Shown here piece by piece: positions 10,714 to 36,589 of a stretch of 36,597 nt of DNA. The position numbers were made by a program, and so were the translations under genes. The stretch comes from Nemertoderma westbladi (lineage: Eukaryota; Animalia; Xenacoelomorpha), in the NCBI GenBank assembly GCA_032718475.1, contig JAUCBJ010002145.1, forward strand, positions 1-36,597, in the 5' to 3' direction. The notes beneath the pieces were generated by a model. It was not told the origin of the DNA, made no database searches, and saw nothing but the letters and a program-made list of their open reading frames with translations. Position 1 is the first letter of the stretch. The number at the start of each line of letters is the position of its first letter.

Positions 10714-12887
10714 TCTATATATATAAATATCCTCTGTCTGTCTGTGAGTCTGTGAGTCTATGAGTCTGTGAGTCTGTCCAAGCTATACGCTCCGACACAC
10801 ATGCACCAATCTGAGCAAATGATACATCGATCGAAAGCTCTCGTCCTGAGCACGTAAACTATCGCAATCTCGAGGCTAATTTTACGCGTTTGCTTGCGTG
10901 AATGCGTATTTTGTGTTCGTTCGGGCGAAATGTATCTAATTATTTCGGTTCTTCTATCGGTAATTAATTATTTAGAGGGGTAACATTTATCCCATCTGGT
11001 ATAAAATTAACATGAGTAGATTCGCCGTGTCCCATTCTCACAAAGTATTTATTTTATTCGAGTGTTTAATATAAATATGTATGATTATTTATTGATTAAA
11101 AATCAAATAGTGTATAAATATGTCATATTCGCCAAGCACGATCGAATTGGCCTATTCTTAGTGCTGTAGTGAATAGGGAAGGATTTTTTTCTGTATCATA
11201 GCAACGTTAAGGTAATTATTGAAATCGCAGCTAGCTGGCTGGGCACAGATAAGGAGCAAGCAGGCTGGAGTGTTGATTGGGGTGGGTTTGGGTTGTCTGT
11301 TGCGAATTGCTCAAGAGTAATTCTGCTTTCTCAATCATTGGCTGCATGGAAGGAGAGGTTTATAACATTTTTGTTTTACTGTTATGAATATTAAAAGTAA
11401 AATAATTATTTATGTAGGCCTATACTTACTGTATTATTATTTTATCTAATATTATACATCTAATCTCGATGAAATCTCGCTTACTATAGCTCGTTAGATA
11501 GGTCTCGCCCTAACTCGTTGCAACGTAATACTCAGAGCCGTCTGAAGTTACCCCATCTGCCGCTAGAGGGCGAATTGTCCGATAGTGAAAACCTGATCTC
11601 ATTGGGTTGTTTTTAATGCTTTTGAGCTGAAACTTGGTAGCTATATACTGCAGCATAGGCTGTATATTTCCGGAGTCACTGAGTTGTCCACAGTTCCCCA
11701 GTCTACCGTTAGAGGGCTAAATGTCTGAGAGTTAACATCTTCTCCAACTTTGTTATTCGCGCAGAGTTGTCTACATTACCCGCGTCTGCCGCTAGAGGGC
11801 GAAATGTATGAAAGTTAACATCTCCTCCAACTTTGTTATTTACAATCCTTTTAGACTGAAACTTGGTAGGCATCTACTATAGCATAGGCTATATCTTTGC
11901 GGAGTAGTAGAGTCGTCTACAGTTCCACAGTCAGCCGCTAGAGGGCGAATTGTCTGAAAGTTAACATCTTCTCCAACTTTGTTATTTACTAACGGTTTAG
12001 ACTGAAACTTGGTATGCATCTACTACAGCATAGGCTGTACCTTTACGGAGTTACAGAGTTGTATACAGTCCCCCCCATCTGCCGCTAGAGGGCGACATAT
12101 CTGATAGTGAACACCTCATCCCATTTGGTTCTTTTTAATCATTTTGAGCTGAAACTTGGTTGGTATCTACTACATCATAGGCTGTATCTTTACGGGGTTG
12201 CAGAATCTTATTCACTTCCCCAGTCTACCGCTAGAGGGTGAAATGTCTGAAAGTTAACATCTTCTCCAACTTTGTTATTTACTAACGGTTTAGACTGAAA
12301 CTTGGTAGGCATCTACTACAGCATAGGCTGTACCTTTACGGAGTCACAGAGTTGTATACAGTCCCCCCATCTGCCGCTAGAGGGCGACATATCTGATAGT
12401 GAACACCTCATCCCATTTGGTTCTTTTTAATCCTATTGAGCTGGAACTTGGCAGGAATCTACTACAGCATATTCTGTATCTTTACGGAGTCCCAGAGTCG
12501 TCCACAGTTCTTCAGTCTACCGCTAGAGGGTGAAATGTCTGAATGTGAACATCTACATCAATTTTGTTATTTACAATCTGTTTAAGCTGAAACTTGAAAG
12601 GCAGGCATTTTACTTCACCATAAACCCCATCTTTACCAAACTGCAGCGCCGTCTGCATTTCACCAGTCCGCAGGTAGAGGGTGGATCTGAAAGTGATCAT
12701 TTTCTGGAAATTTTGTTATTTACAATCTGCCTAAAGTTGAAACTTGACAGTTATCTCTTATGGGGGTGGTGTTTTATTTAATGATGGTGTCTGTTCCGTA
12801 TGCAGTTCTCAAATCTCCCACACATATTCATATATCATCTGCACGTGCACTAGAAAGCTGTGGCCCGAAGGGCCACAGGCTTTCTAG
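10714..12887 (+). mobile_element. Non-autonomous Helitron copy 3 (2174 bp)
   Basis: Near-identical to copy 2 except for a deletion of about 64 bp near 11757. Ends CTAG followed by T at 12888, as expected for Helitron insertion at an A|T site. Confidence 0.85.
11464..12745 (+). repeat. 146-bp tandem array (about 9 units, one partly deleted) inside Helitron copy 3
   Basis: Anchor motif at about 11560, 11706, 11789, 11935, 12082, 12228, 12374 and 12520. Confidence 0.93.
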
Positions 12888-12891
12888 TAAC

Positions 12892-13185
12892 TGTATAAAG
12901 ATCGTCAGTCTGCGTTTAGGAAAAATATTTTATGACAAAACAGGACAAGCGACGAGTGCAACGAGGCATATAATGAAGACGAGTACTGCGTTGACTAAAT
13001 TATTATATAAACCACCTGGCTTCACATATTGATCGCATCCCTAGTTATTATTATTATAAAGATCGTCCTAGCCTGCGTTTAAGAAATATATTTAAATACA
13101 AAAGAGGACGAACGCAAAGAGGCTTATAATGAAAACGAGTACTGCGTTTATTATATTCCTATAAACCACCTGGCTTTGCATATTT
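12892..13185. repeat. Degenerate tandem duplication (about 160 bp x2)
   Basis: The pattern tataaagatcgtc...ctgcgttta...tataatgaa.acgagtactgcgtt...tataaaccacctggctt occurs twice. Confidence 0.8.
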
Positions 13186-13638
13186 AACGTGCGATTGGAA
13201 ATAAGTTCGTGCTACCCTTCCGTGGGTGGTAGATGTCGCGGTTATGTATTGGTGGTTGGGAAGGGTGGAGGGGGGGGGGGGGGAGATTAAAAGGGGTGAA
13301 CACGTACTGTCCCCCTTTCTTTGATTGATTGGTGGTGTGGGTAAATTTCTCAAAACCTGATTTTGTGATACAGTCGCTCAATTTTAATTTGTATATAATA
13401 ACTAGGCCTCGTGCTGCGCGAAGGCCCCACGAACGTGTAACTAACCACAAGGCAGGTAGAGAGATTGGCCAGCTAGATAACGAGATGGAAACCTGAATTC
13501 CCTACCTCCTATTACACTGTAGGGTCCATTATTGTGTTGTTGCTTTCGTCTCAGGTAATAGATTTAATAGGTCTAATTTTATTTATTTGTGTAGAATTAT
13601 TTGTAATTAGGCACTTAAACGTTCTAGAACAACCTAAT

Positions 13639-13797
13639 AATGACGCGTGACATACTGGATGTAAACTGGAAATACATATTAAATGTATGGCGTAGGGACA
13701 TACTGAGAAATAATGTCGCACTGCGATATAAAGTTAGAAAATATGTCGCCCTGGCGATTTGGTAGTGCGAAATTAATTCCATACAAATAAATAAAAA
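13639..13797 (+). repeat. Dispersed repeat, copy A (copy B at about 16195-16340)
   Basis: The two copies share aatgacgcg...actggaaatacata...atactgagaaataatgtcgcactgcga...gatttggtagtgcg.aattaattccatacaaataaataaaa. Confidence 0.85.
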
Positions 13798-14304
13798 GGG
13801 ATATGAATTTCATCAATATTCCTGGACATCACTACTATTAAAATGATTAATTAATTAAGTTAAGCGTTCGGAACCTCATGTTCCATGATGAGAGAGGGAG
13901 AGGATAGCCTATGACTTTCTTGAGAGTCCTCTTACTAAGGTGAAGATGCGGATGATCTCGCGGAAGTCATGGAGTTGTGGCCGCGCATTTTTGTCGATAA
14001 GCCGGCATAGCATTTTAATGCACAATTGTGGATTGCATGGATTTGCTTATATAGGCTCTCGTACTGGGCGAAGGCCCCACAACGTGTTCTGTTTGCGTGG
14101 TGATTCCTTTATAGTAAACGGAACATTACTTAAGAAGAGAAATAAAGACCATATTATCTTATCTCTTATTTGAAAAACACAAGAAATGTAAATTTGCAGG
14201 CACCATTTTTTCTTGCTTTTAAAACACTTTGACTTTACCATGAAAAACACTAATTGAAGCGCACGTCCTTTATGGCATAACCGCGTTACGATATGAAAAT
14301 ATTT

Positions 14305-14919
14305 AGGCTAGAGTTCCGAATGCAGTCGCATTTGATATTTTGTTATTAATTACTGAAATTATGTACTTTTTGCATAGTAATATCAAATAATAAATAAATA
14401 AATATTGTGTTCTAGAACATTAGCTAATCGACTAGCTAGTAATTTTTCAAAACCTGATTGATTATTATATATAAACATTTTTTTTTAATTTCTAAAAATA
14501 CTGCAAGTAGAAAATTAGTAGATATGTTTTGTATGGTAGCTAGTGTTTTTTTACTAGCTAGTTTTTTTTGTAATTATAAATAATGTGAAGTCATTGATAT
14601 TTCAGGATTAAACTAATGCAGAATATATTAATGAACAAAAATATTGATGATATTATAGCAGTATACGGTACATTTTTTGCATGGTAACAATGATTTTATG
14701 TTCAGTATTATAAAAATTCAGTTTTATTTTAAATTACCGGTACTAGCCATTTTAAATTTGAAAAATTACTAGCTATATGTTCTAGAAAATTATATTTTTT
14801 ATTTTATTTATGTTCTGGAACAGTGTATAATAATTATAGTTTGTTCTAGAACTCTGCAATGTTGCCATGGTAACAATGATTTATGTTATAAAAATGCGAC
14901 TGCATACGGAACTGTTCCC
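14305..14919. mobile_element. MITE / foldback element of about 615 bp
   Basis: Terminal inverted repeats agttccgaatgcagtcgcattt (14312) and aaatgcgactgcatacggaact (about 14892-14913). There are internal inverted repeats (tagctagtaatttttcaaa / tttgaaaaattactagcta), and aatattt occurs on both flanks. Confidence 0.75.
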
Positions 14920-15338
14920 AATATTTATGTTCAGAGGGAGCGTAACGAGATAAGTTTACATAAATAAGCGAGGCTCTTTTACGCTGAATGGACGGACCCC
15001 TTTCTTATAATGATGTAATTTTGCTACATTATGTGAGTCTGTTATCTTGGTTTTGTACACACGTAATAACATTAATATTGTATTGTTTGGTGAAATTTAA
15101 TTTGAAAAACACCAAGTGGAGAAAATTAACTTCCAAGGATCGCTAAAAATCTATGACAGTAGGCGTACTACTATACCAGTGGTATACTACCGTAATGTAA
15201 TTTGTATAACAAGAAATAATAACTATATACGTCATTGTTCATAAAATAGTACTTTATAGCGTTACGGCATGAATGATTTTGTATCACAAAACGAGGGCCG
15301 TACATAACTCTTTACATACCGGTACTTGTGTGAAATTT

Positions 15339-15440
15339 ATTATATAATATATATATATAATATATAATAATATATAAATATATATAATATATAATAATAT
15401 ATAAATATATATAATATATAATTATATTATTAATATTATT
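15339..15440. repeat. Pure A/T low-complexity (TA)n-like tract
   Basis: About 100 bp made of only A and T. Confidence 0.9.
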
Positions 15441-16019
15441 TGACCTTCTGACAGTAAGATGGTAGCTAGTACTTTTGATTTTGTGTTAGCTAGTACTTTT
15501 TATTAGCTAGTGAAAAAAATTTAAGATATAAGTTAATTTTCAATTATATTATACATTCACCTGGAATAATTTATGAGTCATGGTACAGTAGCTAGTAATT
15601 TTTATTTGATAGTCAAAGTAGGTCTAGCTAGTAATTATTTACTAGAATTTACTAGATTTCCAGAATGCATTATTTCCATTTATATAAATGCGAGCTGCTT
15701 AATTATCCAGTTTGCAGTGACGGGACAAGCTACTGTATGTAAATAATTGTTTAACGTGTACTGTAATCCATTATCTCGAAACGTCCAATAGAAGACACTA
15801 AAATGACCAAAGAAAATGGCGACAGTGTTCAGTAAAACTGAACGGACACAGACGGTGACTAAGATTGCTTCAGTTGACTATAGTGAAGATGGATTAATGA
15901 TTTATCACATCCATGCAGGAGATAACTTACAATAAACCTTAATTAGATTTAAATGTATTAAATAAATGAGTATCCATAAAATCCTTTCTTCACATACCGA
16001 ACGCTGATAAGTTGACAAA

Positions 16020-16190
16020 ATGTAACAAAATTACATACAACATTATGTACAAAGCAAAGGTCACTTTTCAGCGTTAAGACCCTTGTTTATTTATGTAAAC
16101 CTCCCTCGCTGCGCTCGCTCGGTACATAAATAAACGTAACGCTGCAAAGTGCTACTTTGCACACAATGATGTAAATAGTTGTGATTATAT
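16020..16190 (-). mobile_element. Palindromic non-autonomous element (same family as 30260-30860, opposite orientation)
   Basis: Imperfect foldback centred on ctcgctgcgctcg (tttatttatgta...tacataaataaa; cacttttcagcgtt...aacgctgcaaagtg). The arm actatttacat..ttgtgtg.aaagtagcacttt.cag is shared with about 30267-30305. Confidence 0.65.
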
Positions 16191-16194
16191 TTAG

Positions 16195-16340
16195 AATGAC
16201 GCGGTGATATACTGGAAATACATAGTAAATGTATGGCTTAGGGAAATACTGAGAAATAATGTCGCACTGCGACATTATTTAGAAAATATGTCGCCATGGG
16301 ATTTGGTAGTGCGGAATTAATTCCATACAAATAAATAAAA
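16195..16340 (+). repeat. Dispersed repeat, copy B (copy A at 13639-13797)
   Basis: Direct sequence similarity to copy A. Confidence 0.85.
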
Positions 16341-16452
16341 GTGTATAACTACCGGTGCTGACAATGTTGTTTCAAATTTATATCTATTCTGGAATAAATG
16401 TCATCTATGGTGTTTATAATACTTATTGATTGCATTCTGAAAATGTAAATTT

Positions 16453-17519
16453 GCGAGATACCGACCCAGCAGTCCTCCAGGCTCCCGCTGGAGGGTTACT
16501 AATGCGTGATACCGACCCAGCAGTCCTCCAGGCTCCCGCTAGAGGGTGACTAATGCGTGATACCGACCCAGCAGTCCTCCAGGCTCCCGCTGGAGGGTGA
16601 CTAATGCGTGATACCGACCCAGCAGTCCTCCAGGCTCCCGCTGGAGGGTGACTAATGCGTGATACCGACCCAGCAGTCCTCCAGGCTCCCGCTGGAGGGT
16701 GACTAATGCGTGATACCGACCCAGCAGTCCTCCAGGCTCCCGCTGGAGGGTGACTAATGCGTGATACCGACCCAGCAGTCCTCCAGGCTCCCGCTAGAGG
16801 GTGACTAATGCGTGATACCGACCCAGCAGTCCTCCAGGCTCCCGCTGGAGGGTGACTAATGCGTGATACCGACCCAGCAGTCCTCCAGGCTCCCGCTAGA
16901 GGGTGACTAATGCGTGATACCGACCCAGCAGTCCTCCAGGCTCCCGCTAGAGGGTGACTAATGCGTGATACCGACCCAGCAGTCCTCCAGGCTCCCGCTG
17001 GAGGGTGACTAATGCGTGATACCGACCCAGCAGTCCTCCAGGCTCCCGCTAGAGGGTGACTAATGCGTGATACCGACCCAGCAGTCCTCCAGGCTCCCGC
17101 TGGAGGGTGACTACGGCGTGATACCGACCCAGCAGTCCTCCAGGCTCCCGCTGGAGGGTGACTAATGCGTGATACCGACCCAGCAGTCCTCCAGGCTCCC
17201 GCTAGAGGGTGACTAATGCGTGATACCGACCCAGCAGTCCTCCAGGCTCCCGCTGGAGGGTGACTAATGCGTGATACCGACCCAGCAGTCCTCCAGGCTC
17301 CCGCTAGAGGGTGACTAATGCGTGATACCGACCCAGCAGTCCTCCAGGCTCCCGCTAGAGGGTGACTAATGCGTGATACCGACCCAGCAGTCCTCCAGGC
17401 TCCCGCTGGAGGGTGACTAATGCGTGATACCGACCCAGCAGTCCTCCAGGCTCCCGCTGGAGGGTGACTAATGCGTGATACCGACCCAGCAGTCCTCCAG
17501 GCACCCCCTAGAGGGTGCC
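16453..17519. repeat. 51-bp GC-rich minisatellite, about 21 copies
   Basis: Unit gataccgacccagcagtcctccaggctcccgct(a/g)gagggtgactaatgcgt, with essentially one A/G variable site. Confidence 0.98.
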
Positions 17520-17654
17520 TGACGGTTGAAATAGTTCGCCCGTATGATAAGCGAATGAACGTGGAAGTATTTACCAATGCGCCACTTTTTAAACTGTTGT
17601 AGGCGAAAGTTCTCATCATGTTTGGTTAATAAAAATACATTTGGTTTATCTCAG

Positions 17655-17787
17655 GGCCCTCAATGGCACCAGAAGTTGAGCACCTACCAGGAAGGTCTCC
17701 AACACCTCCTCTATCAACCCAACACCCTGTGTTTGTTGCACCACCACAAAGAAATCAACGCCTCATGCATTCCAATATATATTTAAA
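17655..17787 (+). CDS. PBRM1: Polybromo-1 (BAF180), third-from-last coding exon
   Basis: Bounded by tctcag| and |gtaagt. Encodes PSMAPEVEHLPGRSPTPPLSTQHPVFVAPPQRNQRLMHSNIYLK, matching the recalled vertebrate PBRM1 segment PMFVAPPPKTQRLLHSEAYLK. Confidence 0.88.
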
Positions 17788-17852
17788 GTAAGTTTATAAA
17801 ACTAATTAGCTTGTCGTTATAGTAACTATCTAATCGCTATAGTAATTGGCTA

Positions 17853-17958
17853 TGCTACCAACTGGCTTATCTCACCGTTATATTGGACCCACCGGCGGTG
17901 CTACCAACTGGCTTATCTCACCGTTATATTGGACCCACCGGCGGTGCTACAAACTGGC
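17853..17958. repeat. 46-bp tandem duplication (2.3 copies) in the short PBRM1 intron
   Basis: The unit tgctaccaactggcttatctcaccgttatattggacccaccggcgg starts at 17853 and 17899, with a partial copy at 17945. Confidence 0.95.
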
Positions 17959-18015
17959 AGTGAGGAGGCTATACCTTCAGAGGTTTTATCAAATTATAAT
18001 CTTTAACAATTACAG

Positions 18016-18152
18016 ATACATTGAAGGTCTAACACCGGAGAGTCGTTCAGTGAGCAACTGGAGGAGACAGTTAGCAGCTAATCAGGATAATACGTCGATA
18101 AACCACGAGCAAATAGGAAAGCTGCCAGCTCATTGGCTACCTCATGATATAG
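18016..18152 (+). CDS. PBRM1: Polybromo-1, penultimate coding exon
   Basis: Bounded by ttacag| and AG|gtaagt, and phase-compatible with the previous exon (AA|A = Lys). Encodes YIEGLTPESRSVSNWRRQLAANQDNTSINHEQIGKLPAHWLPHDI, versus recalled human YIEGLSAESNSISKWDQTLAA...EQESRLPSHWL. Confidence 0.9.
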
Positions 18153-20558
18153 GTAAGTTAACAACAGCAAATGGGAAAGCTGCCAGCTCATTGGCTACCT
18201 CATGATATAGGTAAGTTAACAACAGCAAATGGGAAAGCTGCCAGCTCATTGGCTACCTCCTGATATAGGTAAGTTAGCAACAGCAAATAGGAAAGCTGCC
18301 AGCTCATTGGCTACCTCCTGATATAGGTAAGTTAACAACAGCAAATGGGAAAGCTGCCAGCTCATTGGCTACCTCATGATATAGGTAAGTTAGCAACAGC
18401 AAATAGGAAAGCTGCCAGCTCATTGGATACCTCCTGATATAGGTAAGTTAGCAACAGCAAATAGGAAAGCTGCCAGCTCATTGGCTACCTCCTGATATAG
18501 GTAAGTTAGCAACAGCAAATAGGAAAGCTGCCAGCTCATTGGCTACCTCCTGATATAGGTAAGTTAACAACAGCAAATAGGAAAGCTGCCAGCTCATTGG
18601 ATATCTCCTGATATAGGTAAGTTAGCAACAGCAAATAGGAAAGCTGCCAGCTCATTGGATATCTCCTGATATAGGTAAGTTAACAATAGCAAATGGGAAA
18701 GCTGCCAGCTCATTGGCTACCTCCTGATATAGGTAAGTTAACAACAGCAAATGGGAAAGCTGCCAGCTCATTGGCTACCTCCTGATATAGGTAAGTTAGC
18801 AACAGCAAATAGGAAAGCTGCCAGCTCATTGGCTACCTCCTGATATAGGTAAGTTAACAACAGCAAATAGGAAAGCTGCCAGCTCATTGGATACCTCCTG
18901 ATATAGGTAAGTTAGCAACAGCAAATAGGAAAGCTGCCAGCTCATTGGCTACCTCCTGATATAGGTAAGTTAACAACAGCAAATAGGAAAGCTGCCAGCT
19001 CATTGGATATCTCCTGATATAGGTAAGTTAACAATAGCAAATGGGAAAGCTGCCAGCTCATTGGCTACCTCCTGATATAGGTAAGTTAACAACAGCAAAT
19101 GGGAAAGCTGCCAGCTCATTGGCTACCTCCTGATATAGGTAAGTTAGCAACAGCAAATAGGAAAGCTGCCAGCTCATTGGCTACCTCCTGATATAGGTAA
19201 GTTAACAACAGCAAATAGGAAAGCTGCCAGCTCATTGGATACCTCCTGATATAGGTAAGTTAGCAACAGCAAATAGGAAAGCTGCCAGCTCATTGGCTAC
19301 GTCCTGATATAGGTAAGTTAACAATAGCAAATGGGAAAGCTGCCAGCTCATTGGCTACCTCCTGATATAGGTAAGTTAACAACAGCAAATGGGAAAGCTG
19401 CCAGCTCATTGGCTACCTCATGATATAGGTAAGTTAACAACAGCAAATGGGAAAGCTGCCAGCTCATTGGCTACCTCCTGATATAGGTAAGTTAGCAACA
19501 GCAAATAGGAAAGCTGCCAGCTCATTGGCTACCTCCTGATATAGGTAAGTTAACAACAGCAAATGGGAAAGCTGCCAGCTCATTGGCTACCTCATGATAT
19601 AGGTAAGTTAGCAACAGCAAATAGGAAAGCTGCCAGCTCATTGGATACCTCCTGATATAGGTAAGTTAGCAACAGCAAATAGGAAAGCTGCCAGCTCATT
19701 GGCTACCTCCTGATATAGGTAAGTTAGCAACAGCAAATAGGAAAGCTGCCAGCTCATTGGCTACCTCCTGATATAGGTAAGTTAACAACAGCAAATAGGA
19801 AAGCTGCCAGCTCATTGGATATCTCCTGATATAGGTAAGTTAGCAACAGCAAATAGGAAAGCTGCCAGCTCATTGGATACCTCCTGATATAGGTAAGTTA
19901 GCAACAGCAAATAGGAAAGCTGCCAGCTCATTGGCTACGTCCTGATATAGGTAAGTTAACAATAGCAAATGGGAAAGCTGCCAGCTCATTGGCTACCTCC
20001 TGATATAGGTAAGTTAACAACAGCAAATGGGAAAGCTGCCAGCTCATTGGCTACCTCCTGATATAGGTAAGTTAACAATAGCAAATAGGAAAGCTGCCAG
20101 CTCATTGGCTACCTCCTGATATAGGTAAGTTAACTACAACAAATAGGAAAGCTGCCAGCTCATTGGATACCTCCTGACATAGGTAAGTTAGCAACAGCAA
20201 ATAGGAAAGCTGCCAGCTCATTGGATATCTCCTGACATAGGTAAGTTATCAACAGCAAATAGGAAAACTGCCAGCTCATTGGATATCTCCTGATATAGGT
20301 AAGTTAACAATAGCAAATAGGAAACCTGCCAGCTCATTGGATATCTCCTGATATAGGTAAGTTAGCAACAGCAAATAGGAAAGCTGCCAGCTCATTGGAT
20401 ACCTCCTGACATAGGTAAGTTATCAACAGCAAATGGGAAAGCTGCCAGCTCATTGGATACCTCCTGACATAGGTAAGTTATCAACAGCAAATAGGAAAGC
20501 TGCCAGCTCATTGGATATCTCCTGACATAGGTAAGTTATCAACAGCAAATAGGAAAGC
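18108..20558 (+). repeat. 58-bp satellite, about 42 copies, derived from the PBRM1 exon/intron junction
   Basis: Unit agcaaataggaaagctgccagctcattggctacctcctgatataggtaagttaacaac. The first GT is at 18153 and the last at 20531, exactly 41 x 58 apart. Confidence 0.97.
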
Positions 20559-21034
20559 GGCCTACATTGACAGGGCTACCTTGATATTGGAGCACCTTTT
20601 TGGTATACGAGCATCTTTTTGTTGTAAACAGTGTTATTTGTGCTATAATAAGCAATATTTATATTTAATGCTTCGTTTACAGAGAGTAATTGTCAATTAT
20701 CTTTCATATTAGTTATGTGGACCCATATTATTTATATGCACTGCGCTGAACTAAGGGTCTAATGTCCTGTAGACAGAAGAAAATCGGAAAGATTTACACT
20801 CCACAAAACACAAATTATTGTTATAATAATAATTAGTTAATTGTTTAAAAACAACGAGTAAATGACAAACATACCATGCTACATAAGTTGCTTTGTTTTA
20901 GTCCACATGCATTTCATCACTTAACAACATAAAAAAGTCTAAACAATATTTACAAACGTTTAATACAATAAATTACTGAATTAGTGAATTTAAACAAAAT
21001 CGACGACATATTGCTTTCTGTTACATGGCGACGT

Positions 21035-24000
21035 CTAATTGAATGAGTATTGTGGCCCAGGTGTCCCACCACACCATTGGCCAATAAAACGAAGGACATC
21101 TTGGCAGGCCGGACTATGACTGATTTTGGTTTGAGTTAAGTATTTATTCCATTCGGAAGAGATGGCCTCCTTACCAACCTCTTTAAACTCAACTTTATTC
21201 CGTATCACCGGGTATCCAGATATCACACAGGGCTGACTGTTGATGTTGTTACCAATTAGACTCGCCTCATAGATATCGCGTTCATCCTTTGGTAGAACCT
21301 GCTCCACGCTGTGGTCCATACTAACCGCCAGAACCCATTCCCTCACCTCTTCACGTTGGTCCTCGATGACATTAACATGTTCCGGAAGTTCGATCTCAAA
21401 TGGGATGTCTGTATCCCGGAAATCCGTATTATCTAACCCATCCAAAGAGTTCTCCTCAATGGCTTCGCATAAATCTAGGAACCTATTTAGGAATACGAAT
21501 GCCATGTTTCCCCACCCTTGGGCTCTACAATGTATCCCTGCTTCATAGAAAGCCCTATCTGCGGGTATGAGATGGGTATACCGGAGTAGGGATACAGATA
21601 ACTTAGCCAGTAGGGGTTCCAGTTGAGGTTGGCCGATGCATGAGCACCTAATAGCATTGTAGTGGGATACAAGTAGTAAAGCATTAAATATATCAGTGTC
21701 GGATTGGGTAACATCTGAATGACTACCTGTCTTTATATTCTCCGTCAAGTCGTACAACATGTCTCTTAAATTCGCCCATAACTTCTGAGCTTCGGCTGAG
21801 AGTGAGTTTGGCAATATCAAGAAATCAGCTGCGATCCGCTTGTAAATATTGAAGTTTTGATTGTTGGCTGGAGATCCATGCTCATTATACAAGTGTAGTG
21901 CATCTATAGAATTTCCTTTCTTGATTAAATTTGTTGCATATTTTGCAATATACTTATGTAAAACCTGAGCTCCCTGAGATTTAGCAGTTTCAATGCATTT
22001 AACCCACTCACCCCTTTCCGCCATTGTATCCAGAGCTTCACCCATATCAACCTTGGCAAGACTTTCAGTTTCACCATGAAATTTTAAATATTCTTTATAT
22101 TTATTTTCGACATAAGCCTCAAGTCGAGAATCCAATTCCCTCGCTACCTTCCGTGCTTTTGCCCACTCATCTCCTGCCATTAGAACATCCACAGCTTCTT
22201 GAACTAAATCAACATTTAAGTACAATTCGGCAGCGCCTTTGTACTTCTTGATCTTGACGAGTCTTGGGGCAATTTCATTCACAACACTCATTGCCTTATG
22301 ATTCTCAAGAAATTTTATTGCAATGTTTCCGGCTCTCATCCAGCATTGCTCCAATATTGTGGTATCATCCGTAATGGCATTCGATATGCGGCTATAAGCT
22401 TCAACTGCTTTAATGTGGTCACCTGATGTCTCAAAGGACTGAGCTTGATGAACAATCCCCTCAACACCAATTCCCTGCTCCATTGCTGATTGTTGAAATG
22501 CTCGTTGCAAATCATCAACCTTGTTTGGAAGGTATTCCTTACATATCCTCATAGCATCTTGGAACATTCCTGCTTCCTGATAATATGATACAGCTATTTC
22601 AGGTTTAAATGCCTTCAATAAATATGACTCCGCTTGTTGATATTCCTTATTATCAAATGCCATTCTTGCTTGACCGATTAGAACATCGGATATTGACTCC
22701 TTGTCATGTAATTCTGCAACTCTTTGCGCAGAATCCCAGTCTCTATTGTGGACATACATGAGGACTGCTTCCTTTGGGCGGTTGGCCTTAATAAATTCTT
22801 CTTCTGCTTCCCGGAATTTGCCTTCATCTTCTAAAAATTCTGCTTGTTTTATATGAATATCAGGAAGTTTTTCTTTCATGGCAGTTCGAGCCAATTCAAA
22901 TGCAAAGTCGAATGCCCCATTCTCAGCAGCATAGTCGATAGCTGACTCTAGCAACCCATATTTATTTAATAGTTTCACTGCTGATTCACCACCTAAACTC
23001 TTCGCCCATAGATAAGCAACCTGTTTGGACGCATTTGGACCTCCATGCCCTTTGGCCACCCTAAAAGCTTCATCCCATAGATCATTCAATCTGTACATAT
23101 TAACAGCATTTTTCCATTCTTTAGCTTCAACGAAATGGTGTTCTGCTTGTCTGAATTGCTTTTCGGCTTCTAGTTCTTTAGCGAGATGTAGATGACTTTC
23201 TTGAAGGAGTTCTGGATGATTATCTCGAATTAATTTGATCATTGGCTCGTATTGTTTCTCTCTCTTATACATAGCTATCGCTGAATCAGCGTCACCAGCA
23301 ATGAGATATAACCTTTCTGCTTCCTTGAACTTTCCCTGTTTCTCTAATTCCTCAGCTTGAACCATATACATTGTTGATACTTCATCTGGATTCATAGTTT
23401 GTGCTGCAATCTTATGTGCTTCTTCCCATTTCCCTGCTGATTTATACATATCAATGGCTTCTTTGTGCATACCTGCTTGCACATAATAATATTCTGCATG
23501 TTCATATTCCTTGATTGCTGCATAATGCAGTGCAATTCTGTGATAATATTGAGCTGCTACAGATTTATCTTGGAATTTCAATATTTGTATTGCCTTTTGC
23601 CATTGACGGGCCTGTATAGCAGCTTCAGTAGCCTTTAATGATGCCCCTGCTTCTATGTAATGATTTATAGCTGCATCCAACTGCTTTTGGGAAACTAAGT
23701 GATCGCCCCATTCCTCTTCTAACTTCACTACATCCTGGGGAAATGCAGTTTTTGCAAGGTCTAGAGCCCTTCTATATGCCTGGCCTCGTCTGTAGCATTC
23801 TAATGCTCGCTGCATTGATTTGGCCTTCTCAAATAGATCACCTGCTCTCTCAAAGAACTCTCCTTTAATTAATGCTGCCGCAATACGTTGGACCAAATCA
23901 GTATTTTCTAAGAGATTGTCACGAGTTGCCACAACTCGTGCTGCTCTTGCAGGCATACCAGCCTTCATATACAATTGTATTGCAGCATTTATTTCACCTT

Positions 24001-26287
24001 CATTTTCTTTGAGTTCCCCAGCTTTTTCCTCTTGCCCAGTATCCATTAGCCAGTCGTGGTAACTCCTCCTTAGATTATCAAGTTGAGGGTGTTGCTTAAC
24101 CTCAGCAACCTCTATTGCAGCATCCCATTTATGCAGCTGTTGATACATTGCTATTGCGTCATCAACACAGTTGTTTTCTATATAGATTCGCTCAGCTTCT
24201 TTAAACTGCTTCATCAACATTGCCAATTTCGCTTTGATGGTATAATGCCGAGTTCCATCTGTCATCTTCAGCTCTTCAGCAATAGTAATTGCTTCTTCAT
24301 TAAGTTGTTTGAGATATCGTGTCTTGGCAATGTCTCCAAGTGCAGCAAAGCACCTTTCAGCTATAAGTAGATGACTATTCTCCAAACTCAACTTACTTAA
24401 CGTTTTCCACATTGCTTCTGTCTCTGAACTCATCTCCAATGTTTCAAGAAACGAAATAGCTCTGCTATAATCTCCATCATCAACTGCTGTACCGAATTCT
24501 ATCAAACCTTCATCTAAGGTATACGAAATTGGAGACATACCCTCATTTACTATCACATCAGTTTTTCCATCTGTTCTTTCAACATCTGTGATGTCTCCCT
24601 TTATAGGAAACATACTAACTTGTTCTGGTACATCAATATTGTACCAGACACATAGATTGCCACGATTCTGAGCAACTACAACATCCGAACCTGGAACCCA
24701 TTGAACATAGGTGCAATAATTAAGTACTGTTGTCTTTGTCTCCGACATAATATCATATAGATATAATCGCAAGCGTTTATCTCGAAATAAAAGTTTCCTA
24801 CCAGTCTCATTCAATTCAAGCCAGTCGATTTTACTTTCATGGGAGAGGGTAGAGAGGGTGATACCGCTAGTTAAGTCAAGAATACATACTGTCTTCAAAT
24901 CCAACAGGTATACCATCTTTTTGCTATCTTCAACGCCATTTTGCTTTCGCTCATTTAGTCTAATACTGATTACATGGGGATTCATAAACTCCGTACGAAC
25001 AGAGCCCAATATCTCATTGGTGCCATATTCAATTAGGCTCAATTCCCCTGCATTAAATATCATACAAACTAATGGGTTTTCGAAGAAGAATTTTTCATTT
25101 CCTCCAGTTGCCTGCCATTGAACCTCACTCAGTCGACTGGTCTGCATGTCCCCCACCATAAGAGTGTCAGATGTGTGAGCCACCAGAAACCGGTCCTGTC
25201 CCATAACCTTTACCTCATCTATTTCGTAGCCATAGAAAGACTTGAGCACAACTCGATGTCCAGTTTCTATTGTTTTAACAATCACTTGACTCAATCCCAC
25301 ATATGTAACCTCAAATTTATTTCGGATAATGTTTCGTTTCAAGGCACAATCAAACATTTCCACAGCACCACACAAAGTTCCAGCTACTAGGCGAGAACCG
25401 TCTTTCCTCCAAGCGAGAGATGTTATGGTGTAAAGATTCTTAATTTCTTTGGATTTAGCTTCCTCCCAAGCGTGTCGCCGTGGACTCCAATTATAGACCC
25501 TCAGTTTATCCCATGAACCAACCACAAAAGACTGGCCACTTGGGCTACTGGCAGCCACTGTCAATTCTTTTTCGTCATCATCGTGAGAATAATCGAATTG
25601 TTGAACTTGTTTGCCGTCACGGTTATACACCACAACTCTCTTATCGCAGCCACCAGCAACTATTGTGCTCGCCGTCCAACACAGCGCATATGGTGGACAT
25701 CTGTGAGTGACTATCTTTCCCTGATTGCCACCCCCCTCCTCTTCAAAGAAGTACCTAGCGATACTCCCATCGGCGTGGCCTGATAGAAGAGTTTTTCCTG
25801 TTCCACTGCACGTCAAACTGACAACCATGGAATCGGTTCCAAACAATGTCGATGACTTGTTGGTTTTACTGTTACACAAGCGGATTTTACCATCACCTAA
25901 TCCGCAAACAATATCGCGATCAGGTGGCCAAATTAGAGCTAATACTGCAGAGCTCTGCGGAAACTTGTTACAAATAGTCTTCTTGTCACCCCATTCTTCC
26001 CCAATCTTATAAACTAATATTATATTATCTGTTTGCCCTATAGCTATCTTCGAAGAACATGGCGAAAACGCCATGCATTTCACCTGATAGGATTGTTTTC
26101 CATACTTTGCATCAGCAGGTTTCGTCGCGAATTTATCCTTTCTCTCACCTGTCTCATCAAACAGAATAATGGTCCTATCTGACGTAGCCACTGCTAGCTT
26201 TTGGTTATTTGGAGCCCAAGACATGCAAGTAATACGATGCATGCCATCCTGGTGCATCATTAATGACTTTAAGTATTTCAAATTCAT
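21035..26287 (-). CDS. IFT172: Intraflagellar transport protein 172, full length, single coding exon
   Basis: Uninterrupted 1750-aa ORF. The N-terminal WD40 region has hallmark segments (DKFATKPAD.KYG, IAIGQTDNII.VYKIGEEWGDKKTICNKF, SVRTEFMNPH.IS.R.NER). It is followed by a long TPR/alpha-solenoid and a C-terminal AFVFLNRFLDL...EEVREWVLAVSMD...PCVISGYPV. Length is essentially that of vertebrate IFT172. Confidence 0.98.
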   Translation of the reverse strand: MNLKYLKSLMMHQDGMHRITCMSWAPNNQKLAVATSDRTIILFDETGERKDKFATKPADAKYGKQSYQVKCMAFSPCSSKIAIGQTDNIILVYKIGEEWGDKKTICNKFPQSSAVLALIWPPDRDIVCGLGDGKIRLCNSKTNKSSTLFGTDSMVVSLTCSGTGKTLLSGHADGSIARYFFEEEGGGNQGKIVTHRCPPYALCWTASTIVAGGCDKRVVVYNRDGKQVQQFDYSHDDDEKELTVAASSPSGQSFVVGSWDKLRVYNWSPRRHAWEEAKSKEIKNLYTITSLAWRKDGSRLVAGTLCGAVEMFDCALKRNIIRNKFEVTYVGLSQVIVKTIETGHRVVLKSFYGYEIDEVKVMGQDRFLVAHTSDTLMVGDMQTSRLSEVQWQATGGNEKFFFENPLVCMIFNAGELSLIEYGTNEILGSVRTEFMNPHVISIRLNERKQNGVEDSKKMVYLLDLKTVCILDLTSGITLSTLSHESKIDWLELNETGRKLLFRDKRLRLYLYDIMSETKTTVLNYCTYVQWVPGSDVVVAQNRGNLCVWYNIDVPEQVSMFPIKGDITDVERTDGKTDVIVNEGMSPISYTLDEGLIEFGTAVDDGDYSRAISFLETLEMSSETEAMWKTLSKLSLENSHLLIAERCFAALGDIAKTRYLKQLNEEAITIAEELKMTDGTRHYTIKAKLAMLMKQFKEAERIYIENNCVDDAIAMYQQLHKWDAAIEVAEVKQHPQLDNLRRSYHDWLMDTGQEEKAGELKENEGEINAAIQLYMKAGMPARAARVVATRDNLLENTDLVQRIAAALIKGEFFERAGDLFEKAKSMQRALECYRRGQAYRRALDLAKTAFPQDVVKLEEEWGDHLVSQKQLDAAINHYIEAGASLKATEAAIQARQWQKAIQILKFQDKSVAAQYYHRIALHYAAIKEYEHAEYYYVQAGMHKEAIDMYKSAGKWEEAHKIAAQTMNPDEVSTMYMVQAEELEKQGKFKEAERLYLIAGDADSAIAMYKREKQYEPMIKLIRDNHPELLQESHLHLAKELEAEKQFRQAEHHFVEAKEWKNAVNMYRLNDLWDEAFRVAKGHGGPNASKQVAYLWAKSLGGESAVKLLNKYGLLESAIDYAAENGAFDFAFELARTAMKEKLPDIHIKQAEFLEDEGKFREAEEEFIKANRPKEAVLMYVHNRDWDSAQRVAELHDKESISDVLIGQARMAFDNKEYQQAESYLLKAFKPEIAVSYYQEAGMFQDAMRICKEYLPNKVDDLQRAFQQSAMEQGIGVEGIVHQAQSFETSGDHIKAVEAYSRISNAITDDTTILEQCWMRAGNIAIKFLENHKAMSVVNEIAPRLVKIKKYKGAAELYLNVDLVQEAVDVLMAGDEWAKARKVARELDSRLEAYVENKYKEYLKFHGETESLAKVDMGEALDTMAERGEWVKCIETAKSQGAQVLHKYIAKYATNLIKKGNSIDALHLYNEHGSPANNQNFNIYKRIAADFLILPNSLSAEAQKLWANLRDMLYDLTENIKTGSHSDVTQSDTDIFNALLLVSHYNAIRCSCIGQPQLEPLLAKLSVSLLRYTHLIPADRAFYEAGIHCRAQGWGNMAFVFLNRFLDLCEAIEENSLDGLDNTDFRDTDIPFEIELPEHVNVIEDQREEVREWVLAVSMDHSVEQVLPKDERDIYEASLIGNNINSQPCVISGYPVIRNKVEFKEVGKEAISSEWNKYLTQTKISHSPACQDVLRFIGQWCGGTPGPQYSFN

Positions 26288-26731
26288 TTTGATAAATTAA
26301 TTCGTAATAAAGTTTCTGTTTATGGAGTATTTGTTTATTATAGTTCACCAACAAACTGTTCTGGCCTACGCCTATGGTCGTTGAGCAGTTAAAGCACTAT
26401 GTTGATCCTAAACGCTTAAAAAATCATTATAACAATGACAAATTTAAGAATATTAGTGATGCTATTGGTAAATTACTACACAACTTTATGGTAAAGGCTA
26501 CCAATTTCCGATGCGCCAAAATAGGTAATTTAATCATCATTTTTTTCAAAATTAATTTGTGATTCAAAAGTAGATAGGCCTATATTTATAACCACTCATC
26601 ACAACAGATCTATCATCAATTAATAAGGTTAACATGCATCAGTTAAGTTACTTTTTTTTCACCTAATAAAGTAAACTACCGGTATGTATCAAATTAGATA
26701 CCAGATACAATTAGTATCGTCCCCACAATTA

Positions 26732-27117
26732 GGGGCCGTCCAAGTATGACGTCAGCACTTTAGGGGGGGGGGGGGGGGGGTTGGGAAAATCTGATGACGT
26801 GCTGATGAGGGGAGGGGAGGGGAGGGGGTCAGCCAAAATCTGACGTCAGCATGTTCATTTATAGGTGCTAGAAGAGATATAGCAGAAGAGTAAATAGCTT
26901 GCCTATTTTAATTGTTCGAAGCCCCCGAAGGCCCGTAGCACGACCTTCTGTTTCAGTTACCAGTCACCATGTTTCAGTGATTAGGACGCGAATTTTTTTT
27001 AAATCTGATTAAGGGGGGGGGGGGGGGGGTCAACGCCTATCTGATGACATCTGATTTAGGGGAGGGAGGGGGTCAACATTTTGGGGAAAAGTGCAGACCT
27101 CATACTTGGACGGCCCC
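26732..27117. mobile_element. PIF/Harbinger-type (Tourist-like) MITE
   Basis: Perfect TIRs GGGGCCGTCCAAGTATGA / TCATACTTGGACGGCCCC, flanked by a 3-bp TTA duplication (26729-26731 and 27118-27120). It contains two poly-G tracts. Confidence 0.88.
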
Positions 27118-28793
27118 TTACGTCTCTTGCTCAAACATTATTCATCATGACAGACAATATGAAAAGTAAAAATTTCGTAAAACTATTTGCTTGGATAATT
27201 TATATTCCAATCAAATGTTTGCAGAGGCGTATGTGTACCAGAATTAATCAAGCACTAGGCCTATATGTATGGAGCAACCAGCAAACCCATAATCGGATTT
27301 GCAATTACGAAGAAATTTAGAACCCCACAGATATCACCACTACAATGTACCCCTAAGACCAAATCGGAAATGCGGTTAACCGTTTAAGGTCAATGCTTCA
27401 CTTATTACACAATACAACGGTTGATTATTTAGGGCCTAATGTGGTTAATTTAATTTGTTGATATATATATAAGCATTGATATATATATTAATTTTTATTG
27501 TTAATTTTGGAGATTAAATCACCAATGTAGTAACAAAAATATTAATAATAAATTATAAATAATATTTTATTTTTAAAATGACAGCTAAACAACGATGTCA
27601 ATGATCTACAGTAGGCCTGCCAGCCTGTAGGAGTGTTGGCAAGGTAATAAATAAGCTGACAAGGCGGGGGCGGGCTGCGCAACATTAAAATCAATAATAT
27701 ATTGCTAACTGTCACGGTCGGACGTCAGGACGTTATTGTACTAAATTTATTAGATTATAGCTTCACTAAGCCTTACTGTACCAACCAGCCAACCAAACCT
27801 ACGCCGAAACAAACGAAAATCTGAACATTTACATAAAACTAAATGTGACTGAATGCAGGAATTTTAAATAAAGATTAAATAATGGTGGTAGGCCACAATT
27901 ACAATGTGATGAGGCTGATGTACCGTTGTAGTTGTACCGTACCGCGTATCCAAGAAAGGCCATCTCAGCATCTAAAAGTTGTTTAGATGGCCTTGACTGT
28001 TGACCGTAAGTCTTGACCGTACCCTCCCCTCCCTGCGCTGTGCGGTGGTGTCTGATCTGGTATCTGGATCTGTTGTACTTGTATTACTAAATAAGAATCT
28101 GAAATAAAGTACCGCAGGTAACGCCCCCAAACACGTCATGTACTGTACCGGTACCGGCAGGCCGATGCCTAACTGCTGAACTGGTAAACTCTGAAATTAA
28201 TGCAGGAATGAAATGCACATTCCTTACTGAGTAGCTACAGTATACTTGCCAACTTAACAACCGTTGCTAGGCTGCCAGGATATGAGCCAATAGATGAATA
28301 GCTATGGACGAATTTTATTTAGAAAAATAAATATAACTTAATAATACAATTAATTGAGTATTATTATCAATATTTTTTATATTTGTTTATCAATCAAATC
28401 ATAATAGTCTCTGTGTGTAGTGATTAATTATGCCTTATAAAAATCTGGTACCGTTAAGCTTTATATGTTTTTGATTTTATTGATTTTCAAATTAAGCGCT
28501 TCCATTTTAAAATTGTTTTACCTGGATTAAATGACACCTTTTACGTAAATATCGGATACCTTGAATCGTTTAATCACGTTGTCTTAAATGTTGTAATAAT
28601 CATACTAGATTATTCCAACACGTCATGTGAGGTATTGCTTAAATGAAAAATGAAAAATTCTACATTATGCATTTAAATAGTGGCGAATTCATATAAACCA
28701 TATTTTTTGTGCCTTCAACAGTTTAATAATATGAATACTATGTAATTACAAATTTGTAACTTATTTAATACATTGAGATCATTTTATTTACAG

Positions 28794-28894
28794 GTGGACA
28801 TCAGGATGTTGTATCTGCTCTATGGTCTTTGCGAGACTATATGCTCCAAGATGCTCTGAAACTAGACAGGGTCCTTGATGCAACAGAGTTCTAG
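28794..28894 (+). CDS. PBRM1: Polybromo-1, terminal coding exon
   Basis: Acceptor attttatttacag|, phase 1 compatible (G|GT = Gly). Encodes GGHQDVVSALWSLRDYMLQDALKLDRVLDATEF-stop (TAG at 28892-28894), versus recalled human GAHTTMADALWRLRDLMLRDTLNIRQAYNLENV-stop. Confidence 0.9.
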
Positions 28895-34188: not shown

Positions 34189-34861
34189 ACAGTAAGCTCG
34201 CTTACTTCGTTGCTCACCCCACAGTAAGCTCGCTTACTTCGTGGCTCACCCCACAGTAAGCTCGCTTACTTCGTGGCTCACCCCACAGTAAGCTCGCTTA
34301 CTTCGTGGCTCACCCCACAGTAAGCTCGCTTACTTCGTGGCTCACCCCACAGTAAGCTCGCTTACTTCGTGGCTCACCCCACAGTAAGCTCGCTTACTTC
34401 GTGGCTCACCCCACAGTAAGCTCGCTTACTTCGTGGCTCACCCCACAGTAAGCTCGCTTACTTCGTGGCTCACCCCACAGTAAGCTCGCTTACTTCGTGA
34501 CTCACCCCACAGTAAGCTCGCTTACTTCGTGGCTCACCCCACAGTAAGCTCGCTTACTTCGTGGCTCACCCCACATTAAGCTCGCTTACTTCGTTGCTCA
34601 CCCCGCAGTAAGCACGCTTACTTCGTGGCTCACCCCGCAGTAAGCTCGCTTACTTCGTGGCTCACCCCACAGTAAGCTCGCTTACTTCGTGGCTCACCCC
34701 ACAGTAAGCTCGCTTACTTCGTTGCTCACCCCACAGTAAGATCGCTTACTTCGTTGCTCACCCCGCAGTAAGCTCGCTTACTTCGTTGCTCACCCCGCAG
34801 TAAGCTCGCTTACTTCGTGGCTCACCCCACAGTAAGCTCGCTTACTTCGTGGCTCACCCCA
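34189..34861. repeat. 32-bp minisatellite, about 21 copies, with an internal inverted repeat
   Basis: Unit acagtaagctcgcttacttcgtggctcacccc, containing AGTAAGC-tc-GCTTACT. There are no spacers between units. Confidence 0.97.
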
Positions 34862-35113
34862 TGTTTCTTTCACTCACTCACTACACATTAACAGTACTGT
34901 AGGTCTACATGGCTCGACCTGCTTTTGTTTCCTTCTTTACTCTCGTTTGTGTTTCTCATTAGCTTATATGAACTTATACTTTCATGCATGCTGGTAATAT
35001 TAATCAGCAGAACGAGACGGGTTGAATATAATGCTTCCTTTCTAATCGCTATTGACAGCCAGCAACTCTAAGACTACTTACTGTGGCCAACAGCGGGTGG
35101 AATAACTTGTACG

Positions 35114-36589
35114 ATGTCGACTTCAAAAACTAACCATCCGGGTAAACTAGCCGCTGCTCTTGGTATCCAGGGTGGGGATGGTATCGTTATCCCAAATGCA
35201 CCTCTTTTGCAAAAGTCAGAGTTATCGAAACAGACGTACACCTCAGAGTTTAGTGAAAAACTTAATGATAAAAATACAGTTAAGTTAATTCAGACTGGAA
35301 TTGTTACATGCAGTAAACTCCCTATTGTTGGTAATAAGGGAGGTGGTGATCAGTCTCAAAGTTTGTTGAGAACTGAGATTGTTGGTAATAAACAGGCTGT
35401 TGTTAAGAAAGGAACTGCTGAAATTTGTATCAAACGGCTTAGGAAGGGTATGGAACAAGATCAAATTAACAACAAACAACATCAGTTTAATTACAAAAAG
35501 GCAGAGATTGAAAACAATGAGTTTGGGAAGGTTATGAATCAAGTCCGGACTGACAACATACCTAAACACCACCCTAACAAGACAACCGGGTTCAATAAGA
35601 ATCAGGCTGAGATTGATTTCAAACAGAATGATATTAGGAACAAACAAACTGTTTATGTTACCAAACAGCTTGGTGAACAGGTTCAAATCAACCAGAAACA
35701 ACCCGAGTTTAACAAGAAAAAGGCCGAGATAGGTACCAAAAAGTTTAGTAAGGGCAAGGAAGAAGCTCAGATTAACAATAAACCTGAGATTAGTAAAAAA
35801 CGGGCCGGGATTGGTGATAATCAACACAAATTAGCATTGTCGTGTGGACGATCTGCTAGCGGTAACTTTAAAGCCAAAAATCCTCAAAATGTCGCTATCC
35901 AAGAAGCCAGTATTAAAGATAAATATACCATGAAAACTACTGTTTTAGGTGCTCAAAGTAGTGAAAATGTCATTAAGATACGATCTTACATTGATAATGA
36001 GGTAAAGGCAACATCTAACAGTAAGGAGGCCAGTGGCGAAGGGAATGAGACTCAAAGTAGAAAACTCCCAGATGGAATTGAGGAACTGGACCGTCGTGAG
36101 ATGACTGTTACGACAAACACTTCTCGTCGTAAATCTCAGGACACAGATACGAACTCGAAAAAAAATCGTTTAGACGAAAAGTCACGCACGGGTGTGAGTT
36201 CTAACAAGAAGGGCAGAGATGAAACAACTCTGCCACGTATTTCCCAGCCGAAAGAAGCGAAATTGAGAGCTAATTTATCTCTTTCTGGAACGTCGGAATT
36301 GAAGGAAATGGCCCGGGAAATTATTCAAGACATCAACGTGAAACGAGAAAGGGATAGCAGACGTTTATATGGCTATAAAACTCAAGCGGAAACTAAATGC
36401 AAAGTTATTACGGGCAATTTACAAAAAAGTATGGTGGATGTTTATACCGGCATGGGACCAAAAATAGAGGCGAAAATAAAAGCGATTTATAATTCTTTGG
36501 ATCGAATTGATGGTCTCCAGACAGAGTTGGACTCGTTCAAAGAAACTCTCAACATATTCTGTCGCGATATTGTTCGGGAGGAGATGTGA
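35114..36589 (+). CDS. SYCE2: Synaptonemal complex central element protein 2-like, with long K/N/Q-rich N-terminal extension; single coding exon
   Basis: The C-terminal ~95 aa ELKEMAREIIQDINVKRERDSRRLYGYK...VDVY...IEAKIKAIYNSLDRIDGLQTELDSFKETLNIFCRDI aligns without gaps to the recalled SYCE2 core LQKRAQELIENINKSRQKDHALMTNFR...YQIY...IQEKLQEFTQKMAKISHLETELKQVCHSVETVYKDL. The 491-aa ORF is uninterrupted. Confidence 0.75.
   Translation: MSTSKTNHPGKLAAALGIQGGDGIVIPNAPLLQKSELSKQTYTSEFSEKLNDKNTVKLIQTGIVTCSKLPIVGNKGGGDQSQSLLRTEIVGNKQAVVKKGTAEICIKRLRKGMEQDQINNKQHQFNYKKAEIENNEFGKVMNQVRTDNIPKHHPNKTTGFNKNQAEIDFKQNDIRNKQTVYVTKQLGEQVQINQKQPEFNKKKAEIGTKKFSKGKEEAQINNKPEISKKRAGIGDNQHKLALSCGRSASGNFKAKNPQNVAIQEASIKDKYTMKTTVLGAQSSENVIKIRSYIDNEVKATSNSKEASGEGNETQSRKLPDGIEELDRREMTVTTNTSRRKSQDTDTNSKKNRLDEKSRTGVSSNKKGRDETTLPRISQPKEAKLRANLSLSGTSELKEMAREIIQDINVKRERDSRRLYGYKTQAETKCKVITGNLQKSMVDVYTGMGPKIEAKIKAIYNSLDRIDGLQTELDSFKETLNIFCRDIVREEM

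What the first reader, a model, noticed from the sequence alone, without database searches (positions are those of the whole stretch)
17655..28894. Intronless full-length IFT172 nested antisense inside the last intron of Polybromo-1
Seen in sequence: three phase-compatible GT-AG exons rebuild the PBRM1 C-terminus, and the last intron (18153-28793, 10,641 bp) encloses a 5.25-kb intact IFT172 ORF on the opposite strand. Established: IFT172 is typically intron-rich in animals, with dozens of exons in vertebrates. The host gene here keeps spliceosomal introns, so the genome is not simply intron-free. Inference: this is an unusually large functional retrogene, or a case of complete cDNA-mediated intron loss, that may have replaced the parental gene. 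The arrangement puts an essential ciliary gene and a PBAF chromatin-remodelling subunit in overlapping antisense transcription.
Basis: partly seen in the sequence, partly recalled or inferred. Interest (0 to 1): 0.85.

Follow-up and report, generated by a model that had tools for sequence, protein, structure and literature searches.

The report
Intronless IFT172 inside Polybromo-1 intron
In this invertebrate animal, the large cilium-building gene IFT172 has an uninterrupted, intact coding sequence and sits backwards inside a spliced intron of the chromatin gene Polybromo-1; it is likely an old RNA-derived copy that took over from the original gene, a known process seen here on an unusually large gene.

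Summary
Observation confirmed. A stop-free 1,750-codon IFT172 (26287-21035, minus; 65% identical to amphioxus and hemichordate IFT172 over its full length) lies in the 10,641-bp last intron of PBRM1. One spliced contig of run X4 joins 17787>18016 and 18152>28794, so the intron is real. Three DNA runs each hold the ORF in one unbroken contig; one second haplotype links it to the PBRM1 last exon. Of 20 variants seen in the ORF, 16 are synonymous (pN/pS 0.07). X4 also holds IFT172 contigs. No second copy at 90% identity or more was seen, so this is not a recent retrocopy. Best reading (0.6): an old retrogene that replaced its parent ('orphan retrogene'). Loss of the parent and the retroposition itself are inferred: no genome or close relative was available, and no poly(A) or target-site relic survives. 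The lineage is unresolved and leans tunicate-like; retrogene replacement is reported as fairly common in Ciona. The scan's earlier notes hold analogous cases in other genomes (nested NSMCE3; sea-squirt intronless genes), none for IFT172. New member of a known kind, notable for size.

The parts
21035..26287 (-). IFT172 coding sequence, one exon, 1,750 aa (WD40 propellers, TPR solenoid, C-terminal domain)
20793..21034 (-). Probable IFT172 3' UTR (X4 contig of 1,660 nt ends at 20793; strand cannot be read from contigs)
   Evidence: table 8
17655..17787 (+). PBRM1 third-last exon
17788..18015 (+). PBRM1 intron, 228 bp, GT..AG, skipped in the X4 contig
18016..18152 (+). PBRM1 second-last exon
18153..28793 (+). 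PBRM1 last intron, 10,641 bp, GT..AG, host of IFT172; skipped in the X4 contig
28794..28894 (+). PBRM1 last coding exon to the stop codon; 3' UTR appears to run on to about 29897
18108..20562 (+). 58-bp x 42 tandem array that copies the PBRM1 exon end and its splice donor (42 identical TAG|GTAAGT sites); the X4 contig uses the first
26732..27117 (.). MITE-like insertion with inverted ends and TTA duplication, about 445 bp upstream of the IFT172 ATG; absent from the X3 haplotype

Best explanation
The window holds an intact, single-exon IFT172 coding sequence on the opposite strand of a spliced PBRM1 intron; it is likely the organism's working IFT172, and likely arose long ago when a full-length IFT172 mRNA was reverse-transcribed and inserted there, after which the intron-bearing parent was probably lost. 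Shown: the reading frame, the nesting, splicing of the host intron, purifying selection on standing variants. Inferred: transcription from its own promoter between 26288 and 28793, the retroposition step (presumably by a LINE or LTR reverse transcriptase in the germ line, where ciliary genes are active in sperm formation; established knowledge), and loss of the parent. The antisense orientation would keep its sequence out of the PBRM1 mRNA and its poly(A) signal off the PBRM1 strand, so both genes can work; no regulatory link between them is needed.
For: Full-length and colinear with only five indels of 1-2 residues against amphioxus; keeps 606 of 679 columns invariant in 12 other animals. 16 of 20 variants synonymous, pN/pS 0.066, P=3e-8 against neutrality. 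Runs X1, X2, X3 each have one contig through the whole ORF, and summed depth equals that single contig in 7, 11 and 9 of 12 ORF bins, so no second copy of 90% identity or more was laid. Run X4, whose PBRM1 contig is spliced, holds contigs at 20793-22447 and 25444-26256, the first ending about 240 nt past the IFT172 stop. The host keeps 101-137-bp coding exons and canonical introns, so splicing is normal here. CpG across codon boundaries is depleted (51 against 88.9 +/- 6.6 in 1,000 synonymous shuffles) with TpG and CpA excess, as expected of long-methylated gene-body DNA. No poly(A) relic: only two 5-A runs in 470 nt past the stop, and no flanking direct repeat among the 20 families shown of 32, which fits an old event. 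Precedents: PMC3548309, PMC5803294, PMC5408686.
Against: No close relative was found among 386 homologues compared, so neither age nor ancestral locus could be tested. Missing poly(A) and target-site relics also mean there is no direct mark of retroposition. X4 is labelled 'DNA?' by the tool; that it is RNA is my inference from its spliced contig, and contigs give no strand. The protein has a long branch (0.40-0.70) and keeps fewer invariant columns (89%) than Antedon, Owenia, lamprey or Nematostella (95-98%), which could be lineage rate or a past spell of relaxed selection. Two of 27 differences and 7 gap letters in the X3 piece were not shown in the tables, so the variant count may be incomplete and a frame break in that haplotype is not excluded.
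Confidence: 0.6

Rival explanations
1. IFT172 lost its introns by repeated recombination with its own cDNA (or as part of a lineage-wide wave of intron loss in long conserved genes) and came to lie in the PBRM1 intron by a separate DNA-level move or by the host intron forming around it. It is then the original gene, not a copy.
For: A full-length 5.25-kb cDNA is long, and retrocopies are often 5' truncated (PMC5408686 passage). No retroposition relic. The protein leans to a tunicate-like position, and an earlier scan note reports many intron-free housekeeping genes in a sea-squirt genome (unchecked).
Against: It needs two kinds of event (complete loss plus relocation) where retroposition needs one. 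The neighbouring host gene keeps small exons and introns.
Confidence: 0.25
2. It is a functional retro-duplicate, and a diverged intron-bearing IFT172 still exists elsewhere in the genome (for example one copy for sperm or larva, one for other tissues).
For: Long branch and lower retention of invariant columns fit a duplicate that was once relaxed; read laying sees only 90% identity or more.
Against: Strong purifying selection now; all 120 listed full-length hits are plain IFT172 orthologues; IFT172 is single-copy in most animals (recalled, not tested).
Confidence: 0.13
3. Artefact or dead copy: misassembly, a contaminating organism's gene, or a recent processed pseudogene.
For: No laid contig crosses the 2.4-kb tandem array between the PBRM1 exon at 18152 and IFT172 (the array was left out of both layings); X1 and X2 may be the source of the window.
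Against: X3 contig of 8,307 nt, a different haplotype, runs from the array edge through the ORF to the PBRM1 last exon; the array itself is made of the PBRM1 exon end; the spliced contig joins both sides; intact frame and 16:4 synonymous excess.
Confidence: 0.02

Closest known systems
Amphioxus SYCP1 retrogene replacement (Garstang and Ferrier 2018, PMC5803294; abstract and passages seen)
   Same: A large, normally multi-exon gene present as one coding exon at a new locus in an invertebrate, with the parent reported lost.
   Different: SYCP1's exon is about 3.2 kb and lies between genes; here 5.25 kb and inside another gene's intron. Parent loss was shown there and is not shown here.
Human 'orphan' retrogenes (Ciomborowska et al. 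2013, PMC3548309; abstract and sections 14-15 read), including the IFT-B gene TTC30B and KTI12
   Same: Single-exon, strongly constrained replacements of multi-exon parents (Ka/Ks 0-0.24; here pN/pS 0.07). TTC30B is in the table; that it encodes IFT70 of the same IFT-B complex is recalled. KTI12 sits in an intron of TXNDC12 (PMC5408686 passage).
   Different: Those were defined by genome-wide absence of the parent and by changed neighbours, neither testable here. The listed genes are, from recall, much shorter than IFT172.
Retroduplication with parent loss in Ciona (Kim et al. 2014; paper not held; known only through citing passages in PMC5803294 and PMC5408686)
   Same: Same proposed mechanism; described as relatively common in Ciona, and this protein leans to a tunicate-like position.
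   Different: I could not see whether IFT172 is on their list, nor show that this organism is a tunicate.
Nested genes in introns (Lee and Chang 2013, PMC3814207, passages; RetrogeneDB figures in PMC5408686)
   Same: 71% of Drosophila nested genes are antisense; about 20% of 84,483 animal retrocopies lie in introns.
   Different: Nested genes there tend to be fast-evolving and narrowly expressed; IFT172 is a conserved core ciliary gene.

Membership tests
IFT172 orthologue | Full-length similarity to IFT172 with WD40 propellers, TPR repeats and the C-terminal domain | tested here: met
PBRM1 (host) | C-terminal exons match polybromo-1 in order and are spliced together | tested here: met
PBRM1 (host) | Upstream bromodomains, BAH and HMG domains in the same gene | not testable with these tools
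   No such exons in the window; they would lie upstream of position 1
Nested antisense gene | Whole coding sequence inside one spliced intron of a host on the other strand | tested here: met
Retrogene | No introns across a coding region that has introns in orthologues | tested here: inconclusive
   No introns here. Orthologue introns: only a figure legend for Xenopus ift172 (bioRxiv 10.1101/2020.11.27.400994) and 'isoform' labels; the human count of about 48 exons is recalled (search found nothing); intron positions were not mapped
Retrogene | Poly(A) relic and target-site duplication | tested here: not met
   expected to decay in old copies, so this lowers 'recent' more than 'retro'
Retrogene | Location differs from the ancestral locus | not testable with these tools
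   No genome and no close relatives
Retrogene (functional) | Intact frame, purifying selection, transcription | tested here: met
   Frame and selection. Transcription rests on contigs of X4, inferred to be RNA, without strand
Orphan retrogene / retrogene replacement | Parental multi-exon gene absent from the genome | tested here: inconclusive
   No copy at 90% identity or more in three DNA runs; more distant copies not visible

The most novel reading that the evidence does not exclude
The whole 5.25-kb message of an essential ciliary gene was reverse-transcribed in one piece, erased dozens of introns at a stroke, landed in PBRM1 and became the animal's only IFT172, under a new promoter without a recognisable X-box; it would be larger than the replacements found in the papers read, and may mark a lineage where long conserved genes are routinely replaced by full-length cDNA copies.
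Probability: 0.35. Interest if true: 0.6.

Novelty: new member of a known kind. Interest (0 to 1): 0.42.

Why it matters
It extends retrogene replacement to a 1,750-residue, dozens-of-exons core ciliary gene, so message length is not a hard limit on full-length, functional retroposition. It also offers a natural test of how a ciliary gene regains cilium-specific control at a new locus, and of whether head-on transcription with a chromatin-remodelling host matters. The class of event is known, so the value is that of an extreme example.

Tried and rejected
Whole-genome search for a parent: no genome held. X4 has no contig over 22448-25443 or 26257-26287: a hole proves nothing; the edges of the hole are not splice sites. 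Close relatives: none among the listed hits of three homologue searches and one profile-free library scan (386 compared); the exact protein is not in the collection; 19 of 20 representatives looked up were unnamed or from other groups, one was mammalian, none a tunicate or xenacoelomorph. Lineage: five trees disagree (beside Ambulacraria, 81; near the base with long outgroups; with vertebrates, 92; in a chordate polytomy, 89; none finished a careful search); AU tests under LG+G4 rejected only a sister position to Antedon (p 0.017), 1 of 5 run, and the cnidarian test timed out. Xenoturbella was considered: its published median intron of 131 nt and 43% GC (PMC11521371 passages) fit the window poorly; acoelomorph figures (PMC10565955 passages) neither fit nor exclude. 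X-box upstream of IFT172: none in 26287-28790 with four recalled patterns; one perfect X-box at 14861 lies in another PBRM1 intron. Rfam: no match. Literature: 'IFT172'+'intronless' gave 2 unrelated papers (listing only); 'IFT172'+'48 exons' none; searches gave nothing on an intronless IFT172 (listings only). The library lacks most subscription journals, and no supplements were read; gene lists in supplements (Kim 2014 above all) may already name IFT172.

Full report
The observation. The longest frame in the window runs stop to stop from 26296 to 21035 on the minus strand. Its first ATG is at 26287 and it gives 1,750 residues without a stop; at the window's composition such a frame has a chance near 1e-48. 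A homologue search found 952 proteins at E below 1e-50; the 120 listed are 60-65% identical over 99-100% of the query, and those with a telling name are IFT172, led by amphioxus and two hemichordates. Pfam gives WD40 propellers and the IFT140/172 and IFT80/172 TPR families; solved IFT172 chains match at E=0 and 1e-99. Against amphioxus there are five indels of one or two residues, and 606 of 679 columns invariant in 12 other animals are kept.

The host. Three short exons (17655-17787, 18016-18152, 28794-28894) translate in phase to one peptide ending in a stop. Taken singly they hit the PBRM1 chain of 7y8r at residues 1483-1519, 1521-1562 and 1567-1590, in order; only the middle exon is significant alone (E 2e-6; the others 0.37 and 1.2). 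The middle exon also finds an insect polybromo-1 with six bromodomains, two BAH domains and an HMG box, and that protein hits all three exons in order. No earlier PBRM1 exon lies in the window, so the preceding intron exceeds 17.6 kb.

Splicing. Six runs were listed, none on record as RNA. Run X4, from a study other than the two possible source runs, holds a contig of 896 letters and depth 158.2 that covers 17654-17787, skips 228 bases with GT..AG ends, covers 18016-18154, and goes on with the letters of the exon at 28794. A contig of the same length and depth starts at 28792 with 451 letters before it, and the record positions fit exactly, so I take them as one contig. Both introns are therefore removed, and I infer that X4 is RNA. 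The 10,641-bp intron is real.

The nested gene in DNA. X1, X2 and X3 each carry the whole ORF in one contig (6,237, 6,232 and 8,307 letters). The X3 contig is another haplotype and runs on to 29217, past the PBRM1 last exon, lacking only a repeat at about 26729-27117. X1 and X2 may be the source of the window, and X3 shares a sample label with X2, so this is limited independent support. At a 90% threshold the summed depth over 12 ORF bins equals the single contig in 7 (X1), 11 (X2) and 9 (X3) bins and exceeds it by at most 7% in the rest. An intron-bearing parent that close would add exon-sized pieces throughout; none appear. The tool warns that depth is no copy number, and a more distant parent would be invisible. 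No contig was tested across the 2.4-kb array at 18108-20562, but that array is itself built from the PBRM1 exon end.

Function. Twenty variants were listed inside the ORF (19 from X3, 1 from X1): 16 synonymous, 4 non-synonymous, pN/pS 0.066, P=3e-8 against neutrality. Two of the 27 differences and 7 gap letters in that X3 piece were not shown, so the count may be short. X4 holds contigs at 20793-22447 (depth 61.6) and 25444-26256 (20.9); the first ends about 240 bases past the IFT172 stop, as a 3' UTR would. Contigs give no strand, so a minus-strand mRNA is inferred. CpG across codon boundaries is depleted (51 against 88.9 +/- 6.6; 0 of 1,000 shuffles as low) with TpG and CpA excess, the mark of long methylation; this could come from the parent's exons or from residence in the PBRM1 gene body.

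Origin. No poly(A) tract or flanking duplication (20 of 32 families shown) survives, no close parent exists, and the sequence is well aged, so a recent retrocopy is unlikely. One insertion of a full-length cDNA explains both the lack of introns and the position inside another gene, and is my best reading (0.6). Intron loss in place plus relocation (0.25) and a surviving diverged parent (0.13) remain open, because no genome is held and no close relative turned up among 386 homologues. That IFT172 is intron-rich in animals rests mostly on recall (about 48 human exons); in print I saw only a legend on Xenopus ift172 introns, and a direct search found nothing.

Lineage. The protein is an isolated, longish branch. 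It fell beside Ambulacraria, near the base with long outgroups, with vertebrates and in a chordate polytomy, never with starred support for a small group. It shares 12 of 41 vertebrate-diagnostic columns against 3 of 16, 2 of 11, 11 of 107 and 3 of 77 for ambulacrarians, spiralians, cnidarians and amphioxus. That leans to a tunicate-like position, but no tunicate or xenacoelomorph sequence was in the set and the AU tests did not reject Ambulacraria (p 0.38) or Spiralia (p 0.26).

What is known. Retrogene replacement is documented: 25 human orphan retrogenes under strong constraint, TTC30B among them (PMC3548309, abstract and two sections); amphioxus SYCP1 with a 3.2-kb single exon, and a statement that the process is relatively common in Ciona (PMC5803294, passages; PMC5408686, passages; PMC5470649, passages). 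About 20% of annotated animal retrocopies lie in introns, and 71% of Drosophila nested genes are antisense (PMC3814207, passages). Kim et al. 2014 was not held. I found no paper on an intronless IFT172 (listings only; the library is partial and no supplements were read). The scan's notes hold no IFT172 case and nothing for this genome but two analogues elsewhere, which are unchecked leads.

Verdict. The arrangement is real and the nested gene is very likely functional. It works like an orphan retrogene; membership is not established because parent loss and change of locus could not be tested. It is a new member of a known kind whose distinction is size. Interest 0.42.

Noticed in passing
window 18108-20562: 58-bp unit x 42 copies the PBRM1 exon end and donor: 42 identical TAG|GTAAGT sites. 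The X4 contig uses the first; use of any of the next five tested would bring a stop in the extended exon. Same kind as the human F7 intron 7 minisatellite (PMC1557585, abstract).
   Followed up: yes
window 26732-27117: MITE-like element with GGGGCCGTCC ends and TTA duplication (PIF/Harbinger-like, label recalled), very high depth in all runs, about 445 bp upstream of the IFT172 ATG and absent from the X3 haplotype: a polymorphic insertion in the likely promoter.
   Followed up: partly
window 1-17654: No PBRM1 exon here although the spliced contig has 182 more letters upstream, so this is one intron of over 17.6 kb, filled with 146-bp arrays (6186-12603) and a 51-bp x 21 array (16452-17517) that appear to share a CCGCTAGAGGG core.
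   Followed up: partly
window 3-1886 (minus) and 35072-36589 (plus): Open frames of 628+ and 505 aa with no Pfam match even at E 0.5; low-complexity and coiled-coil-like, possibly ORF1 or gag-like parts of mobile elements (guess).
   Followed up: partly
window 14861-14874: A perfect palindromic X-box-like motif in the upstream PBRM1 intron, 6 kb beyond the IFT172 stop, with a partial second copy at 14675; probably part of a repeat.
   Followed up: no
window 34189-34861: 32-bp x 21 tandem array at 97% identity just before the 505-aa frame.
   Followed up: no
window 18151-18154 and 28792-28795: Both ends of the host intron read AG|GT, so the junction has four ambiguous letters; common for introns, but also what an insertion with an AGGT duplication would leave.
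   Followed up: no
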